A stretch of 64,000 bases of DNA from Escherichia coli (GTDB lineage Bacteria > Pseudomonadota > Gammaproteobacteria > Enterobacterales > Enterobacteriaceae): the NCBI RefSeq assembly GCF_022846255.1, contig NZ_AP025682.1. The stretch is one strand, 5' to 3'. The stretch's first letter is position 1, and the number at the start of each line of letters is the position of its first letter. The position numbers and the translations under genes were made by a program. The notes beneath the pieces were generated by a model. The model had not been told where the DNA came from, did no database searches, and was given only the letters and a program-made list of their open reading frames with translations. This document shows positions 4,188-27,609 of the stretch, piece after piece.

Positions 4188-5423
4188 ATGACGGAACAAG
4201 AAAAAACCTCCGCCGTGGTTGAAGAGACCAGGGAGGCCGTGGACACCACGTCACAACCTGTCGCAACAGAAAAAAAGAGTAAGAACAATACCGCATTGAT
4301 TCTCAGCGCGGTGGCTATCGCTATTGCTCTGGCGGCGGGCGTCGGTTTGTATGGCTGGGGTAAACAACAGGCCGTCAATCAGACTGCCACCAGCGATGCC
4401 CTGGCTAACCAACTTACGGCACTGCAAAAAGCCCAGGAGAGCCAAAAAGCCGAGCTGGAAGGCATTATCAAGCAACAAGCTGTACAGCTTGAGCAGGCGA
4501 ATCGTCAGCAAGAAACGCTGGCAAAACAGCTGGATGAAGTCCAACAAAAGGTCGCCACCATTTCCGGCAGCGATGCTAAAACCTGGCTGCTGGCCCAGGC
4601 CGATTTTCTGGTGAAACTCGCCGGACGGAAGCTGTGGAGCGATCAGGACGTCACGACCGCTGCAGCGTTGCTGAAAAGTGCAGACGCCAGCCTGGCGGAT
4701 ATGAATGACCCGAGTCTGATTACCGTTCGCCGGGCAATTACCGATGATATCGCCAGCCTTTCTGCGGTATCGCAGGTGGATTATGACGGTATCATCCTTA
4801 AGCTTAATCAGCTTTCAAATCAGGTAGATAATCTGCGTCTGGCCGATAATGACAGCGATGGTTCGCCGATGGATTCCGACGGTGAAGAGCTTTCCAGTTC
4901 CATCAGCGAATGGCGTATCAATCTGCAAAAAAGCTGGCAGAACTTTATGGACAACTTCATTACGATTCGCCGTCGTGATGACACCGCCGTACCGCTGTTA
5001 GCGCCAAATCAGGATATCTATCTGCGCGAAAATATTCGCTCTCGCCTGCTGGTCGCAGCACAAGCTGTACCGCGTCACCAGGAAGAGACTTATCGCCAAG
5101 CGCTGGAGAACGTCTCCACCTGGGTACGTGCTTACTACGATACTGATGATGCCACCACCAAAGCGTTCCTCGACGAGGTGGACCAGTTAAGCCAGCAAAA
5201 TATCTCGATGGATCTTCCGGAAACCCTGCAAAGCCAGGCGATGCTGGAAAAATTGATGCAGACCCGCGTGCGTAACCTGCTGGCACAACCGGCAGCAGGG
5301 ACAACGGAAGCTAAACCTGCACCTGCACCTGCACCTGCACCTGCACCTGCACCTGCACCTGCACCTGCACCTGCACCTGCACCGCAAGCTGATGCTCCGG
5401 CAGCCGCGCCGCAAGGAGAATAA
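4188..5423 (+). CDS. hemX: HemX (uroporphyrinogen-III methyltransferase homolog / membrane protein) with C-terminal (Pro-Ala)11 tract
   Basis: 411-aa ORF following hemD; N-terminal TM segment, coiled-coil-like Q/A-rich region, C-terminal PAPAPA repeat. Confidence 0.9.
5316..5381 (+). repeat. Perfect tandem hexanucleotide repeat (CCTGCA)x11 inside hemX 3' end
   Basis: Directly visible: cctgca repeated 11 times, in frame, encoding (PA)11. Confidence 0.97.
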
Positions 5424-5425
5424 CC

Positions 5426-6622
5426 ATGCTAAAAGTGTTATTGCTCTTTGTGTTGCTGATTGCGGGGATCGTGGTTGGCCCGATGATTGCCGGCCATCAG
5501 GGTTACGTGCTGATCCAGACCGACAACTACAATATTGAAACTAGCGTCACGGGCCTCGCGATTATTTTGATTCTGGCGATGGTAGTGCTGTTTGCCATTG
5601 AGTGGCTACTGCGGCGAATCTTCCGCACAGGCGCGCACACCCGTGGGTGGTTTGTCGGACGTAAGCGTCGCCGTGCACGTAAGCAGACCGAACAGGCGCT
5701 GCTGAAACTGGCGGAAGGCGATTATCAGCAAGTTGAAAAGTTGATGGCGAAAAATGCCGATCACGCTGAACAACCGGTGGTGAACTATCTACTGGCAGCC
5801 GAAGCCGCGCAACAACGTGGTGATGAAGCACGCGCCAACCAACATCTGGAACGCGCAGCGGAGCTGGCCGGCAATGACACCATTCCGGTAGAAATCACCC
5901 GTGTACGTCTGCAACTGGCCCGTAATGAAAACCATGCAGCACGTCACGGCGTGGATAAGCTGCTGGAAGTTACGCCACGCCATCCGGAAGTATTACGTCT
6001 GGCGGAACAGGCGTATATCCGCACTGGTGCATGGAGTTCGCTGCTGGATATCATCCCATCAATGGCGAAAGCCCATGTTGGTGATGAAGAACATCGTGCA
6101 ATGCTGGAACAACAGGCATGGATTGGCCTGATGGATCAGGCGCGTGCCGATAACGGTAGTGAAGGTTTGCGTAACTGGTGGAAAAACCAAAGCCGGAAAA
6201 CGCGTCATCAGGTGGCCTTGCAGGTGGCAATGGCGGAACATCTTATTGAGTGTGACGATCATGATACTGCCCAGCAAATTATCATCGATGGCCTGAAACG
6301 CCAGTATGACGATCGCCTGCTGCTGCCGATCCCGCGTCTGAAAACCAATAACCCGGAACAGCTGGAAAAAGTGCTGCGCCAACAGATCAAAAACGTGGGC
6401 GATCGCCCGCTGTTGTGGAGCACACTGGGTCAGTCGCTGATGAAACACGGAGAATGGCAGGAAGCATCGCTCGCCTTCCGCGCAGCGCTGAAACAACGTC
6501 CGGACGCCTACGATTACGCATGGCTTGCCGACGCGCTGGACAGACTGCACAAGCCGGAAGAAGCCGCAGCGATGCGTCGCGACGGTTTGATGTTAACGTT
6601 GCAGAACAACCCGCCACAGTAG
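5426..6622 (+). CDS. hemY: HemY (TPR-containing inner-membrane protein of hem operon)
   Basis: 398-aa ORF starting 3 nt after hemX stop; matches HemY. Confidence 0.95.
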   Translation: MLKVLLLFVLLIAGIVVGPMIAGHQGYVLIQTDNYNIETSVTGLAIILILAMVVLFAIEWLLRRIFRTGAHTRGWFVGRKRRRARKQTEQALLKLAEGDYQQVEKLMAKNADHAEQPVVNYLLAAEAAQQRGDEARANQHLERAAELAGNDTIPVEITRVRLQLARNENHAARHGVDKLLEVTPRHPEVLRLAEQAYIRTGAWSSLLDIIPSMAKAHVGDEEHRAMLEQQAWIGLMDQARADNGSEGLRNWWKNQSRKTRHQVALQVAMAEHLIECDDHDTAQQIIIDGLKRQYDDRLLLPIPRLKTNNPEQLEKVLRQQIKNVGDRPLLWSTLGQSLMKHGEWQEASLAFRAALKQRPDAYDYAWLADALDRLHKPEEAAAMRRDGLMLTLQNNPPQ

Positions 6623-6633
6623 CTCTTTCTCAC

Positions 6634-6660
6634 CCGGAGGCAAGCACCTCCGGGGCCTTT
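6634..6660 (+). terminator. Hairpin downstream of hemY (ccggagg-caagca-cctccgg), putative hem operon terminator
   Basis: Perfect 7-bp stem 12 nt after hemY stop followed by T-rich stretch (ctttct). Confidence 0.5.
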
Positions 6661-6669
6661 CTGATATAT

Positions 6670-6876
6670 AAAAAAACGCCTGCTCTTATTACGGAGCAGG
6701 CGTTAAAACAGGTCTGTATGACAACAAGTGGGTGCTTCACTCAACGTTGTGTCCATGGTGTCTGATGAGGCATAAGCGACATCTGTCAGTGGACGATAAG
6801 CACCGTAAACGGCTCTGCGTCATTCCGGAGTTTATGAGGCACTAAGGCGAACATAAGAGATGGAATGAGCATCTAC
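6670..6876 (-). ncRNA. glmZ: Small RNA GlmZ (207 nt) with intrinsic terminator at its 3' end
   Basis: Minus strand reads GUAGAUGCUCAUUCCAUCUCUUAUGUUCGCC...AACGCCUGCUCCGUAAUAAGAGCAGGCGUUUUUUU, matching recalled GlmZ; located between hemY and aslA as in E. coli. Confidence 0.85.
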
Positions 6877-6882
6877 TCGTTT

Positions 6883-6888
6883 ATTATG
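6883..6888 (-). promoter_or_regulatory. Putative glmZ -10 element (TGgCATAAT extended -10) just upstream of the GlmZ 5' end
   Basis: Minus strand ...tctgtggcataataaacg immediately 5' of GUAGAUG; spacing ~6 nt to the RNA 5' end. Confidence 0.5.
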
Positions 6889-7300
6889 CCACAGAGAACC
6901 GGGAAATAACATCCCTTAACACTTGTTATGAGATAATTCTGTAATCCTCTTTGCTTCCTGAGTAATAACTTCCTGAGTGAATATTTCTCCTGCGCACAAT
7001 TCTACACATATATATAATGAATAATAAAAGTCATTCAATTAATAACATATATATTAATTGCCGTTAAAACTAAAAACAGCATCAATAATCAACGCGATAT
7101 AACATCACCGCCTTACATATCACCTGCGCCAGAGGTAGGATTGCAAACGCTCTCCTGATTTTCCAATTCATTTTCTGGATAAATAAATAATTTATTTTTA
7201 TCACTATTATTTATGCAATCATCCTGTCAGGGAGAGGGATCTCAATTATCAATGCTTAATTACGTCATCATTTTGACGACATGAAACCGGAGCATTTTGC

Positions 7301-8956
7301 ATGGAATTTTCGTTTTCACCCAAACTTCTTGTTGTTGCTGTCGCCGCAGCTCTTCCTCTCATAGCCAGCGCAGCAGATACCCCGTCAACCGCCACCGCAC
7401 GCAAAGGCTTTGCCGGATACGATCACCCAAACCAGTATCTGGTTAAACCGGCGACCACTATTGCCGACAACATGATGCCGGTGATGCAGCATCCTGCACA
7501 AGACAAAGAAACCCAGCAGAAACTGGCGGAACTTGAGAAAAAAACCGGTAAGAAACCGAACGTGGTTGTTTTCTTGCTGGATGATGTGGGCTGGATGGAC
7601 GTTGGCTTTAACGGCGGCGGCGTGGCGGTGGGTAACCCTACACCAGATATCGACGCCGTTGCCAGCCAGGGGCTGATTTTAACTTCGGCGTATTCTCAAC
7701 CGAGTTCTTCCCCAACCCGCGCCACGATTCTCACCGGACAATACTCCATCCACCACGGCATTCTGATGCCGCCAATGTACGGGCAACCGGGCGGTCTGCA
7801 AGGGTTAACCACGCTGCCGCAGTTGCTGCACGATCAGGGCTACGTCACTCAGGCCATCGGGAAATGGCATATGGGGGAAAACAAAGAGTCGCAGCCGCAG
7901 AACGTTGGCTTTGATGATTTCCGCGGCTTTAACTCGGTATCCGATATGTATACCGAATGGCGTGATGTTCACGTCAACCCGGAAGTCGCCCTGAGCCCGG
8001 ATCGTTCTGAATACATCCAAAAACTGCCGTTCAGCAAAGATGACGTTCATGCCGTGCGCGGCGGTGAACAGGAAGCCATTGCCGACATTACGCCGAAATA
8101 TATGGAAGACCTGGATCAACGCTGGATGGAATATGGCGTTAAGTTCCTCGACAAGATGGCGAAGAGTGATAAGCCTTTCTTCCTCTATTACGGCACTCGC
8201 GGCTGTCACTTCGATAACTACCCAAATGCGAAATATGCGGGTAGCTCTCCGGCGCGCACCTCTTACGGCGACTGCATGGTGGAGATGAACGATATCTTCG
8301 CCAATCTGTATAAAGCACTGGAGAAAAACGGTCAGCTTGATAACACGCTGATTGTGTTCACCTCTGATAACGGTCCGGAAGCCGAAGTTCCGCCGCACGG
8401 TCGCACGCCGTTCCGCGGTGCGAAAGGTTCTACATGGGAAGGCGGCGTTCGTGTGCCAACCTTCGTTTACTGGAAAGGCATGATCCAACCGCGTAAATCT
8501 GACGGCATTGTCGATCTGGCGGATCTCTTCCCTACGGCACTGGATCTGGCGGGGCACCCTGGGGCGAAAGTAGCGAATTTAGTACCGAAAACCACCTTTA
8601 TCGATGGTGTGGACCAGACATCTTTCTTCCTGGGAACAAATGGTCAGTCTAACCGTAAGGCCGAGCACTACTTCCTCAACGGCAAACTTTCTGCTGTGCG
8701 TATGGATGAGTTCAAGTATCACGTCCTGATCCAGCAACCGTACGCGTATACCCAGAGCGGGTATCAGGGTGGATTCACCGGCACAGTAATGCAAACGGCG
8801 GGATCGTCGGTGTTTAACCTGTACACCGATCCGCAGGAAAGCGACTCCATCGGCGTGCGCCATATCCCAATGGGTGTACCGCTACAGACCGAAATGCACG
8901 CGTATATGGAGATCCTGAAAAAATATCCACCACGCGCGCAGATTAAATCTGATTAA
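7301..8956 (+). CDS. aslA: Arylsulfatase-family protein AslA (periplasmic sulfatase, signal peptide)
   Basis: 551-aa ORF; N-terminal signal sequence; sulfatase motifs; matches AslA. Confidence 0.93.
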
Positions 8957-10428: not shown

Positions 10429-10505
10429 TGGTCGGCGAGAGAGGATTCGAACCTCCGACCCACTGGTCCCAAACCAGTTGCGCTACCAAGCTGCGCTACT
10501 CGCCG
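10429..10505 (-). tRNA. proM: tRNA-Pro (anticodon UGG)
   Basis: Reverse complement is a 77-nt tRNA with anticodon loop UUUGGGA and CCA end; matches E. coli proM. Confidence 0.96.
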
Positions 10506-10547
10506 AAATACTGCTTTTTGAATTTTTAGTTCAATTCTTTAAAGTCG

Positions 10548-10634
10548 TGGTGCGAGGGGGGGGACTTGAACCCCCACGTCCGTAAGGACACTAACACCTG
10601 AAGCTAGCGCGTCTACCAATTCCGCCACCTTCGC
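10548..10634 (-). tRNA. leuT: tRNA-Leu (anticodon CAG), long variable arm
   Basis: 87-nt tRNA on minus strand, anticodon CAG, CCA encoded. Confidence 0.96.
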
Positions 10635-10654
10635 ATTGTCACAACTTCTAATAA

Positions 10655-10731
10655 TGGGGTGGCTAATGGGATTCGAACCCACGACAACTGGAATCACAAT
10701 CCAGGGCTCTACCAACTGAGCTATAGCCACC
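10655..10731 (-). tRNA. hisR: tRNA-His (anticodon GUG) with extra 5' G(-1)
   Basis: 77-nt tRNA on minus strand, anticodon loop AUUGUGA. Confidence 0.96.
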
Positions 10732-10788
10732 ACTACAAATCTTGTTACGCGGTATTACTACCACCGCAGCTCAAGCGCCGGGACTAAA

Positions 10789-10865
<77 letters not shown>

Positions 10866-27149: not shown

Positions 27150-27479
27150 TTACGCCAGGTTAGCGTCGAGGAACTCTTTCAACTGACCTTTAGACAGTGC
27201 GCCCACTTTGGTTGCCGCCACTTCACCGTTTTTGAACAGCAGCAGAGTCGGGATACCACGGATGCCATATTTCGGCGCAGTGCCAGGGTTTTGATCGATG
27301 TTCAGTTTTGCAACGGTCAGTTTGCCCTGATATTCGTCAGCGATTTCATCCAGAATCGGGGCGATCATTTTGCACGGACCGCACCACTCTGCCCAGAAAT
27401 CGACGAGGATCGCCCCGTCCGCTTTGAGTACATCCGTGTCAAAACTGTCGTCAGTCAGGTGAATAATTTTATCGCTCAT
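27150..27479 (-). CDS. trxA: Thioredoxin 1
   Basis: ORF 27150..27584; start at [18 protein letters not shown] (109 aa); WCGPC active site. Confidence 0.96.
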
Positions 27480-27609
27480 ATATAACTCCACAGGAATAAG
27501 CCTGGCGTGTTGGTTTCGTTGTTGGTGTAACATTAACCAACTAAAGGTTGACTTTATTTCACCGGATACGCTTTCGTAAAGCAATAGTAAGCTGATATTC
27601 TACCACACT

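What the first reader, a model, noticed from the sequence alone, without database searches (positions are those of the whole stretch)
6634..6890. glmZ sRNA lies tail-to-tail with hemY, with two back-to-back terminator hairpins in a 48-bp gap
The hemY stop (6622) and the glmZ 3' end (~6670) are separated by only two hairpins, one facing each direction. The glmZ promoter shows an extended -10 (TGgCATAAT). This is not novel, but the compact convergent arrangement is worth noting when interpreting expression data.
Basis: partly seen in the sequence, partly recalled or inferred. Interest (0 to 1): 0.2.

Follow-up and report, generated by a model that had tools for sequence, protein, structure and literature searches.

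The report
Known E. coli glmZ small-RNA gene
This is the well-studied E. coli small RNA gene glmZ, sitting tail-to-tail with the heme gene hemY exactly as in the K-12 reference strain, so the finding is correct but ordinary.

Summary
The window is E. coli chromosome. Rfam places GlmZ (RF00083) at 6670..6876 on the minus strand (218 bits, E 3e-56). Its 207 nt are identical to K-12 GlmZ. hemY ends at 6622, convergent with glmZ.

- The gap is 47 bp, not 48.
- It holds only one hairpin (6633-6654). The second hairpin (6675-6704, plus a U7 tract) is GlmZ's own terminator, inside the gene.
- The promoter motif TGgCATAAT is real and matches the published Escherichia glmZ sigma-70 promoter, ATGTTA-N15-tggCATAAT. 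Its -35 (6907-6912) lies outside the reported interval.

Published Term-seq maps the hemY mRNA 3' end 7 nt past hairpin 1 (window 6661). Bicyclomycin data from the same study show Rho-dependent termination of hemY-sense transcription running antisense into glmZ. Hairpin 1 has a weak U-tract, so it is probably leaky rather than a strong terminator.

The tail-to-tail synteny is conserved across Enterobacteriaceae and already published. Side result: 694 of 5426 complete E. coli genomes carry an uncharacterised 196-aa gene in place of the 47-bp gap.

Verdict: already known, low interest.

The parts
5426..6622 (+). hemY, the last gene of hemCDXY; TAG stop at 6620-6622
   Evidence: ORF; NCBIfam NF008017 HemY, 830 bits, full length; annotated hemY in matching E. 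coli genomes
6633..6654 (+). Hairpin 1 on the hemY-sense strand: CCCGGAGG-caagca-CCTCCGGG, followed by the weak U-tract GCCTTTCT
   Evidence: Inverted repeat I3; -17.4 kcal/mol, z -2.4; not called by the terminator scan; shared by five Escherichia sequences with one G-C to A-T compensatory pair in E. albertii
6661..6661 (+). Position equivalent to the published hemY mRNA 'primary' 3' end (K-12 3986647, minus strand), 7 nt after the hairpin 1 stem
   Evidence: Adams et al. 2021 Term-seq, supplementary file 1, all three growth conditions; coordinates transferred through the gap-free alignment to K-12
6670..6876 (-). glmZ, 207-nt primary sRNA; transcription start at 6876, 3' end in the U7 run at 6670-6676
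   Evidence: Rfam RF00083, 218.4 bits, E 3e-56; identical to K-12 GlmZ; 207-nt primary transcript per PMC4152352
6670..6704 (-). GlmZ intrinsic terminator: 11-bp stem AACGCCTGCTC/GAGCAGGCGTT, 8-nt loop, U7 tail
   Evidence: Terminator scan; inverted repeat I1; -19.8 kcal/mol, z -6.1; stem kept through many different sequence variants across genera
6708..6727 (-). glmS-pairing site, GlmZ nt 150-169 (UUGUUGUC and GACCUGU blocks); published RapZ/RNase E cleavage products end at nt 152/154 (window 6725/6723)
   Evidence: Duplex with the K-12 glmS leader at -40..-22, -19.2 kcal/mol, 19 of 1000 shuffles as good; Term-seq internal 3' ends at 3986583/3986585
6883..6891 (-). -10 hexamer CATAAT (6888..6883) preceded by TGG (6891..6889), giving TG at -15/-14
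   Evidence: Sequence; published as tggCATAAT, and mutating the right half of the -10 abolishes expression; invariant in 8 Escherichia sequences
6907..6912 (-). -35 hexamer ATGTTA (3 of 6 match to TTGACA), 18 bp upstream of the -10 hexamer
   Evidence: Sequence; published, and mutating it drastically reduces expression; invariant in 8 Escherichia sequences
7301..8956 (+). aslA, divergent from glmZ; the 424-bp aslA-glmZ spacer holds both promoters
   Evidence: ORF; annotated aslA in matching genomes

Best explanation
This is the chromosomal glmZ locus of E. coli.

Shown by others in K-12, and transferable because the RNA is identical:
- glmZ is transcribed leftward from a single constitutive sigma-70 promoter (ATGTTA-N15-tggCATAAT) starting at 6876. 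It ends at its own strong intrinsic terminator, giving a 207-nt RNA.
- With Hfq, full-length GlmZ pairs through nt 150-169 with the glmS leader. This opens a hairpin that hides the ribosome-binding site and raises GlmS synthesis when glucosamine-6-phosphate is low.
- When that metabolite is plentiful, the adaptor protein RapZ hands GlmZ to RNase E. RNase E cuts inside the pairing site (around nt 151-154) and inactivates the RNA. The homologous decoy sRNA GlmY titrates RapZ.

Inferred here about the convergent partner:
- hemCDXY transcripts mostly end at or are trimmed back to hairpin 1. This gives a 3' end 8 bp short of the glmZ 3' end, so the mature RNAs do not overlap.
- Hairpin 1 has a weak U-tract and is leaky. 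Polymerases that pass it run antisense into glmZ and are stopped by Rho.
- The few glmZ transcripts that escape their terminator are likewise stopped by Rho inside antisense hemY.
For: - Identity: Rfam match and 207/207 identity to K-12. The region matches 5425 of 5426 complete E. coli genomes, and K-12 annotates glmZ b4456 at this spot.
- Promoter: exact match to the published, mutationally tested sigma-70 promoter. ATGTTA, TGG and CATAAT are invariant in 8 Escherichia sequences while the spacer varies. No TGGCAC -24 box is present; CCCGGT stands in its place.
- Mechanism: the glmS-pairing blocks are present. The 207-nt and ~151-nt forms and the RapZ/RNase E/GlmY circuit are described in PMC4152352. 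Term-seq internal 3' ends fall at nt 152/154.
- Termination geometry: the hemY 3' end maps at K-12 3986647, which is window 6661.
- Rho regions: on the hemY strand at 3986596, antisense to glmZ, coverage upstream/downstream is 175/52 without bicyclomycin and 154/473 with it (Rho score 10.3, p 4e-44). On the glmZ strand at 3986668 it is 1924/30 and 1745/76 (score 2.8). So only about 1.6% of glmZ-strand coverage continues past its terminator.
- Hairpin 1's tail has 4 T in 8 here and 3 in 8 in K-12.
Against: - Nothing contradicts the identity of the gene.
- The roles assigned to hairpin 1 and to Rho come from K-12 data and 800-nt coverage windows, not from this strain. The window differs from K-12 at three gap positions, one of which adds a T to the tail.
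- Term-seq cannot distinguish true termination at hairpin 1 from exonuclease trimming back to it.
- Covariation support for hairpin 1 is weak: one compensatory pair in five sequences, and 109 of 500 shuffles do as well.
- The contribution of the TG motif to promoter strength has not been tested.
Confidence: 0.95

Rival explanations
1. Hairpin 1 is an efficient Rho-independent terminator that fully insulates glmZ from hemCDXY transcription. On this view there are two true back-to-back intrinsic terminators.
For: GC-rich 8-bp stem, -17.4 kcal/mol. The published hemY 3' end lies 7 nt after the stem, the usual distance for intrinsic termination. The hairpin is kept in E. coli and E. albertii.
Against: The tail has 4 T in 8 (3 in K-12) and fails the scan threshold. 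Without bicyclomycin, hemY-strand coverage downstream is still 52 against 175 upstream. With bicyclomycin it rises to 473 (Rho score 10.3).
Confidence: 0.2
2. Hairpin 1 does not terminate transcription at all. hemCDXY transcription is ended by Rho further downstream, and exonucleases trim the RNA back to the hairpin, which only protects the 3' end.
For: Strong Rho signal just downstream on the hemY strand. Poor U-tract. In 33 of 52 related loci with a 20-130 bp gap, the gap hairpin likewise lacks a T-rich tail.
Against: The 3' end sits exactly 7 nt after the stem within a partly U-rich stretch, which also fits weak intrinsic termination. The data available cannot separate the two.
Confidence: 0.3
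3. The promoter is a classical extended -10 promoter in which the TG motif makes the -35 dispensable.
For: TG at -15/-14 directly precedes CATAAT. The -35 matches only 3 of 6 with an 18-bp spacing, so the simple sigma-70 scan misses the promoter. TG is present in 71 of 77 related promoters.
Against: Mutating the three consensus bases of the -35 'reduced expression drastically', and deleting sequence upstream of -20 abolished it. The TG itself was never mutated. In relatives the same TG belongs to the sigma-54 -12 element TGC, so its conservation need not reflect sigma-70 use.
Confidence: 0.15
4. The RNA is GlmY, or a sigma-54/GlrR-controlled glmZ like that of Salmonella or Yersinia, rather than the E. 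coli-type glmZ.
For: GlmY and GlmZ are homologous and belong to one Rfam clan. Most Enterobacteriaceae glmZ promoters carry TGGCAC-N5-TGC (49 of 77).
Against: GlmZ is the best-scoring family of the clan. The glmS-pairing site, which is specific to GlmZ, is present. The locus is next to hemY rather than glrK. There is no -24 box. [quoted passage not shown]
Confidence: 0.01

Closest known systems
GlmZ (SraJ/RyiA, b4456) of E. coli K-12 MG1655; Rfam RF00083
   Same: All 207 nt are identical. Same neighbours (hemY and aslA), same 47-bp gap length, same hairpin 1 stem and loop, same -35, TGG and -10 elements.
   Different: One spacer substitution in the promoter (G at window 6899, position -23, where K-12 has A). 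Three substitutions in the gap outside the stem, one of which gives the hairpin tail an extra T. There are divergent patches further upstream in the aslA-glmZ spacer.
glmZ of Klebsiella/Raoultella (sigma-70 only, ATGCAA-N15-tgcGATAAT)
   Same: Same promoter class and visibly alignable: ATGCAATTTCCACGG...TGTGCGATAAT against ATGTTATTTCCCGG...TGTGGCATAAT. Same convergent hemY neighbour.
   Different: The gap is 79-100 bp with an unrelated hairpin. The GlmZ body aligns at only 73% in BLAST over a longer stretch (about 260 nt against 207).
[quoted passage not shown]
   Same: Homologous sRNA and the same convergent hemCDXY synteny. The -10 region aligns with E. coli (TGTGCAATAAT against TGTGGCATAAT), including TG at -15/-14.
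   Different: These carry TGGCAC-N5-GTGCA and GlrR/IHF sites and respond to GlrR. The window has CCCGGT in place of the -24 box, and its GC doublet is shifted by one base.
GlmY (decoy sRNA, same Rfam clan CL00011)
   Same: Homologous 5' two-thirds and the same overall fold. Both are bound by RapZ.
   Different: GlmY lacks the glmS-pairing site and lies upstream of glrK. The window RNA has the pairing site and lies next to hemY.

Membership tests
GlmZ sRNA (Rfam RF00083) | Covariance-model score at or above the curated gathering score, over the full model length | tested here: met
   218.4 bits against 60; model positions 1-214 of 214; no non-canonical pairs flagged in the alignment
GlmZ sRNA (Rfam RF00083) | Single-stranded site complementary to the glmS leader, the feature that separates GlmZ from GlmY | tested here: met
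   nt 150-169 pair with the K-12 glmS leader at -40..-22 in blocks of 8 and 7 bp, -19.2 kcal/mol, 19 of 1000 shuffles as good. The leader came from K-12, because glmS lies outside the window.
GlmZ sRNA (Rfam RF00083) | Two imperfect stem-loops followed by a Rho-independent terminator | tested here: met
   Structure line of the Rfam alignment; the minimum-energy fold recovers stem-loop 1, the central stem-loop and the terminator; terminator scan
GlmZ sRNA (Rfam RF00083) | RapZ-dependent RNase E cleavage to a ~151-nt inactive form | not testable with these tools
   Inferred from sequence identity to K-12, where Term-seq finds internal 3' ends at nt 152/154 and the literature shows RapZ/RNase E processing
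GlmZ sRNA (Rfam RF00083) | Conserved position next to the oppositely oriented hemCDXY operon | tested here: met
   hemX and hemY sit immediately upstream on the opposite strand. Every related locus that retained enough flanking DNA shows a convergent hemY. Published synteny.
Escherichia-type glmZ sigma-70 promoter (Gopel et al. 2010, group III) | ATGTTA-N15-tggCATAAT at the right distance from +1 | tested here: met
   Exact match at 6912..6883, with CATAAT at -12..-7
Sigma-54/GlrR-dependent glmZ promoter (groups I and II) | TGGCAC-N5-TTGCA-like -24/-12 boxes | tested here: not met
   The window has CCCGGT where relatives have TGGCAC. The pattern TGGCAY-N4-6-TGC is absent in all 8 Escherichia sequences and present in 49 of 77 loci overall. 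Published gel-shift and rpoN/glrR mutant data agree.
Extended -10 (TGn) sigma-70 promoter | TG at -15/-14 immediately upstream of the -10 hexamer | tested here: met
   T at 6891 and G at 6890 precede CATAAT; invariant in 8 Escherichia sequences
Extended -10 (TGn) sigma-70 promoter | The TG motif contributes to activity and/or relieves the need for a -35 | not testable with these tools
   The TG has never been mutated. Published -35 mutations strongly reduce activity, so the promoter is not -35-independent.
Intrinsic (Rho-independent) terminator, applied to hairpin 1 | GC-rich stem-loop immediately followed by a U-rich tract | tested here: inconclusive
   The stem qualifies (8 bp, 7 of them G-C). 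The tail has 4 T in 8, one below the scan's threshold. The published 3' end lies 7 nt after the stem, but a Rho-dependent region lies just downstream.
Bidirectional intrinsic terminator, applied to either hairpin | A U-rich tract on both strands, so that one hairpin terminates both convergent genes | tested here: not met
   The glmZ terminator read on the hemY strand is followed by TTAAAACA. Hairpin 1 read on the glmZ strand is followed by TGAGAAAG. Genera with gaps of -2 to 18 bp have only the glmZ hairpin, but still with an AAAAC-type tail on the hemY strand.

The most novel reading that the evidence does not exclude
hemCDXY read-through past the leaky hairpin 1 would produce an RNA perfectly antisense to GlmZ's terminator and glmS-pairing site, with its level set by Rho. 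If that antisense transcription, or polymerase collision, measurably lowers functional GlmZ, heme-operon transcription and Rho activity would feed into cell-envelope precursor control. The 12.8% of E. coli strains that carry orfX in place of hairpin 1 would then regulate GlmZ differently.
Probability: 0.05. Interest if true: 0.5.

Novelty: already known. Interest (0 to 1): 0.08.

Why it matters
It matters little as a discovery: the gene, its promoter, its mechanism and its synteny are all published. The practical value is for annotation and expression analysis.
- The K-12 reference annotates only 172 of the 207 nt, and the PGAP-annotated genomes I inspected omit glmZ entirely. Reads from GlmZ's terminator therefore get labelled as hemY-glmZ intergenic or as antisense.
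- The mapped hemY and glmZ 3' ends lie only 8 bp apart on opposite strands, so unstranded data cannot separate them.
- The junction is not uniform across strains. About one E. coli genome in eight has an extra gene there.

Tried and rejected
- The simple sigma-70 scan did not find the glmZ promoter. Its -35 matches only 3 of 6 bases, below the scan's threshold, so this is a limit of the scan and not evidence against the promoter.
- Duplex prediction with full-length GlmZ against the whole glmS leader gave a meaningless sprawling duplex. I repeated it with only the single-stranded segment.
- Covariation analysis of hairpin 1 is uninformative with five close sequences.
- A permissive Rfam scan of 6550-7350 found nothing besides GlmZ. 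The three sub-threshold hits (E 0.08-0.9) are chance matches to the terminator hairpins.
- I considered hairpin 1 as a REP element and rejected it. It does not resemble the REP-like GCCCGGTGGCGCTTCGCTTACCGGGC hairpin found at this spot in Citrobacter and Salmonella. The REP comparison rests on my recollection of REP consensus sequences.
- Pfam and NCBIfam searches of the 196-aa orfX product gave no significant family.
- I did not resolve whether the compact allele or the orfX allele is ancestral in Escherichia. Outgroups lack orfX, but both alleles occur in E. coli and apparently in E. albertii.

Full report
**What is there.** The window is Escherichia coli chromosome. The stretch 6300-7400 matches 5425 of 5426 complete E. 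coli genomes, several at 100% identity. An Rfam scan of the whole window places GlmZ_SraJ (RF00083) at 6670..6876 on the minus strand. The match is end to end (model 1-214 of 214), at 218.4 bits against a gathering score of 60, E 3.4e-56, with no non-canonical pairs flagged. A permissive rescan of 6550-7350 finds nothing else of note. These 207 nt are identical to K-12 MG1655, where glmZ (b4456) is annotated between aslA and hemY. The upstream ORF 5426..6622 (+) is HemY (NF008017, 830 bits), preceded by hemX. On the other side are aslA (7301..8956, +) and aslB.

**Geometry of the junction.** The hemY TAG stop is at 6620-6622, and the last base of the Rfam match is 6670. The gap 6623..6669 is therefore 47 bp, not 48. 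It contains one hairpin, with arms 6633-6640 and 6647-6654 (CCCGGAGG / CCTCCGGG, 6-nt loop). On the hemY strand this hairpin folds at -17.4 kcal/mol, z -2.4, with 4 of 200 shuffles as good. The second hairpin has arms 6675-6685 and 6694-6704, an 11-bp stem and an 8-nt loop, and is followed on the glmZ strand by U7 (-19.8 kcal/mol, z -6.1, 0 of 200 shuffles). It is GlmZ's own terminator and lies inside the gene, not in the gap. The terminator scan calls only this second hairpin in the gap. Hairpin 1's tail, GCCTTTCT, has 4 T in 8, one short of the threshold. Neither hairpin has a U-tract on the opposite strand, so neither looks bidirectional.

**Promoter.** Reading the minus strand upstream of 6876 gives ...GGGATGTTATTTCCCGGTTCTCTGTGGCATAATAAACGA followed by G(+1). 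This places CATAAT at -12..-7 (6888..6883), TGG at -15..-13 (6891..6889) and ATGTTA at 6912..6907. It is letter for letter the promoter that Gopel et al. 2010 (PMC3045617) print for Escherichia and Shigella: 'ATGTTA-N15-tggCATAAT'.
- They showed that sequence upstream of -40 is dispensable.
- Removing sequence upstream of -20, or mutating the three consensus bases of the -35, strongly reduces expression.
- Mutating the right half of the -10 abolishes expression.
- GlrR does not bind, and rpoN or glrR deletions have no effect. Their conclusion is a single, constitutive sigma-70 promoter.
- They never use the word 'extended' and never mutated the TG. The promoter is clearly not -35-independent.

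The window differs from K-12 in the promoter only at 6899 (-23, G for A), inside the spacer.

**Promoter comparison across genera.** One scan of species-representative genomes with a conserved GlmZ core pattern returned 120 loci from Enterobacterales.
- Of 77 loci with enough upstream sequence, 71 have TG at -15/-14. The other six are shifted by one base.
- 49 carry a sigma-54-like TGGCAY-N4-6-TGC. None of the 8 Escherichia sequences does. They have CCCGGT (or a close variant) where relatives have TGGCAC.
- Within Escherichia, ATGTTA, TGG and CATAAT are invariant while the spacer between them varies, as expected if those elements are the functional ones.
- The -10 regions align across groups: TGTGGCATAAT in Escherichia, TGTGCGATAAT in Raoultella, TGTGCAATAAT in Salmonella, Citrobacter and Enterobacter. 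The Escherichia TG therefore occupies the same position as the TG of the sigma-54 -12 element TGC in relatives. I infer it is a retained piece of the older overlapping promoter. This small refinement is an inference, not a tested result.

**How the RNA works.** This comes from the literature and transfers because the sequence is identical. The primary transcript is 207 nt. A ~151-nt form arises by cleavage that removes the pairing nucleotides. Full-length GlmZ, with Hfq, pairs with the glmS leader, opens the hairpin hiding the ribosome-binding site and stabilises the mRNA. RapZ binds GlmZ and recruits RNase E. GlmY mimics GlmZ and sequesters RapZ when glucosamine-6-phosphate is low (PMC4152352). 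I tested the pairing site directly. GlmZ nt 150-169 (window 6727..6708) pair with the K-12 glmS leader at -40..-22 in blocks of 8 and 7 bp, at -19.2 kcal/mol, with 19 of 1000 shuffles as good. Published Term-seq finds GlmZ-internal 3' ends at K-12 3986583 and 3986585. These are nt 152 and 154 (window 6725 and 6723), inside the first pairing block as the model requires.

**What the two hairpins do.** Adams et al. 2021 (PMC7815308) list a 'primary' hemY mRNA 3' end at K-12 3986647 (minus strand) in all three growth conditions (supplementary file 1). Through the gap-free alignment this is window 6661, 7 nt after the hairpin 1 stem and 8 bp short of the glmZ 3' end. The mature RNAs therefore do not overlap.

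Their bicyclomycin experiment lists both directions as Rho-termination regions (supplementary file 2):
- On the hemY strand at 3986596 (window ~6712, antisense to glmZ), upstream/downstream coverage is 175/52 without the drug and 154/473 with it. The Rho score is 10.3, p 4e-44.
- On the glmZ strand at 3986668 (window ~6640, antisense to hemY), the figures are 1924/30 and 1745/76, Rho score 2.8.

My reading, which is inference:
- The glmZ terminator is efficient, since about 1.6% of coverage continues past it.
- Hairpin 1 is leaky, or merely protects a trimmed 3' end.
- Rho cleans up read-through in both directions.

Term-seq cannot distinguish termination at hairpin 1 from trimming back to it. 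The coverage windows are 800 nt wide, so the positions are approximate.

**Conservation of the arrangement.** Gopel et al. already reported that glmZ lies next to the oppositely oriented hemCDXY operon throughout Enterobacteriaceae. In my set, the distance from the hemY stop to the glmZ 3' end varies widely.

| Lineage | Gap | Content |
|---|---|---|
| Pseudescherichia, Trabulsiella, Yokenella and two unnamed Enterobacteriaceae genomes (UBA5654, UBA7338); 7 loci | -2 to 18 bp | No room for a second hairpin |
| Enterobacter, Lelliottia, Pluralibacter, Pseudocitrobacter | 34-48 bp | Mostly a strong hairpin plus T6-7 |
| E. coli and E. albertii | 47-48 bp | Hairpin 1 |
| Citrobacter and Salmonella | 55-108 bp | A different, REP-like hairpin |

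Among the 52 loci with gaps of 20-130 bp, 10 have a hairpin with a T-rich tail, 33 have a hairpin with a poor tail, and 2 have no hairpin of 6 bp or more. Another 20 loci have gaps above 130 bp. Hairpin 1 is shared by five Escherichia sequences, with one G-C to A-T compensatory change in E. albertii and one broken basal pair in another lineage. That is too little variation for a statistical statement: 109 of 500 shuffles do as well.

**An unexpected polymorphism.** When 6600-6925 was searched against all complete E. coli genomes, 697 matched only from the glmZ 3' end onward. In these strains the 47-bp gap is replaced by 638 bp. This stretch contains a different, canonical hemY terminator (ATATCGCC-N8-GGCGATAT-T7), a ribosome-binding site, and a 196-aa ORF annotated 'hypothetical protein' (WP_001260226.1). 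The ORF's TAA stop overlaps the A-run that encodes GlmZ's terminal U-tract.
- The cassette is in 694 of 5426 genomes (12.8%), in two sequence variants.
- It is also in Escherichia sp. E1V33, and is internally deleted in E. whittamii.
- Homologues are almost confined to Escherichia.
- It matches no Pfam or NCBIfam family.
- It has a hydrophobic N-terminal segment and dN/dS of 0.22-0.31, so it looks like a real gene.

In an Enterobacter/Leclercia group, a 403-aa MFS transporter occupies the same junction, and in E. asburiae it ends 5 bp from glmZ. The junction is thus a recurrent insertion point, and the two-hairpin layout seen in this window is one allele among several.

**Practical consequences.**
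- K-12's record annotates glmZ as 172 nt (3986432-3986603), leaving out the 35-nt terminator.
- The PGAP-annotated genomes I inspected show no glmZ feature.
- A RIL-seq study explicitly had to treat 'glmZ.hemY' intergenic reads as GlmZ.

**Verdict.** The feature is already known in every important respect, so interest is low. The most novel reading not excluded is that Rho-limited hemCDXY read-through acts as a functional antisense to GlmZ. I give that about 5%.

Noticed in passing
Not in the window (it replaces window 6623-6669 in other strains); L002:5365-6004, L003:5364-6002, L123, L103: In 694 of 5426 complete E. coli genomes, the 47-bp hemY-glmZ gap is replaced by 638 bp. This holds a canonical hemY terminator plus an uncharacterised 196-aa membrane-like ORF (WP_001260226.1) whose TAA stop overlaps GlmZ's terminal U-run. 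The ORF has dN/dS of 0.22-0.31, no Pfam or NCBIfam family, and homologues almost only in Escherichia. It is internally deleted in E. whittamii.
   Followed up: partly
L017:475-1686 and about eleven other loci with ~1.37-1.46 kb gaps (Enterobacter asburiae, mori and sichuanensis, Leclercia, Phytobacter): A 403-aa MFS-family transporter gene, co-oriented with hemY, is inserted between hemY and glmZ. In L017 it ends 5 bp from the glmZ 3' end. The junction is a recurrent insertion point that always spares the glmZ terminator.
   Followed up: partly
window 5315-5383 (inside hemX, 4188-5423): A perfect hexanucleotide tandem repeat, (ACCTGC) x 11.5, encodes Pro-Ala repeats near the HemX C-terminus. 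HemX is 411 aa here, against 393 aa in K-12 and 399 and 395 aa in two other strains, so the repeat number varies between strains.
   Followed up: partly
window ~6985-7030 and 7094-7111 (aslA-glmZ spacer): Two short patches diverge sharply from K-12 in an otherwise near-identical spacer. The second creates a terminator-like hairpin (GCGGTGATGTTATATCGC) on the minus strand that K-12 lacks. Published deletion analysis shows that sequence upstream of -40 is dispensable for glmZ expression.
   Followed up: no
window 6667-6669 and the equivalent positions in nearly all 120 related loci: The two or three bases just beyond GlmZ's U-run are almost always (C)AT on the hemY strand (UUUUUUU-AUG on the glmZ strand), even where the rest of the gap is unrelated. 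The reason is unknown.
   Followed up: no
E. coli RefSeq records (e.g. NZ_CP023853.1, NZ_AP043644.1); NC_000913.3 3986432-3986603: The PGAP-annotated E. coli genomes I inspected carry no glmZ feature. K-12 annotates only 172 of the 207 nt, omitting the terminator.
   Followed up: yes
L079 (Alkalicoccobacillus porphyridii, 279-bp contig): A 279-bp contig in a Bacillales assembly is 99% identical to E. coli glmZ. This is almost certainly E. coli contamination of that assembly.
   Followed up: no
window 41824-42113 (-), 27450-27549 (-), 48675-48774 (-), 45335-50554 (-), 10432-10865 (-): Other Rfam hits above gathering score: Rev39 5' UTR, TrxA 5' UTR thermometer, StyR-44 within an rRNA operon, a complete rrn operon with tRNAs, and a four-tRNA cluster beside aslB. 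The gene order matches the K-12 region from hemC towards rrnC.
   Followed up: no
and summaries: One of the 5,400-odd matches to this chromosomal region, and one orfX match, lie on a record labelled as a plasmid. This may be a mislabelled or misassembled replicon.
   Followed up: no
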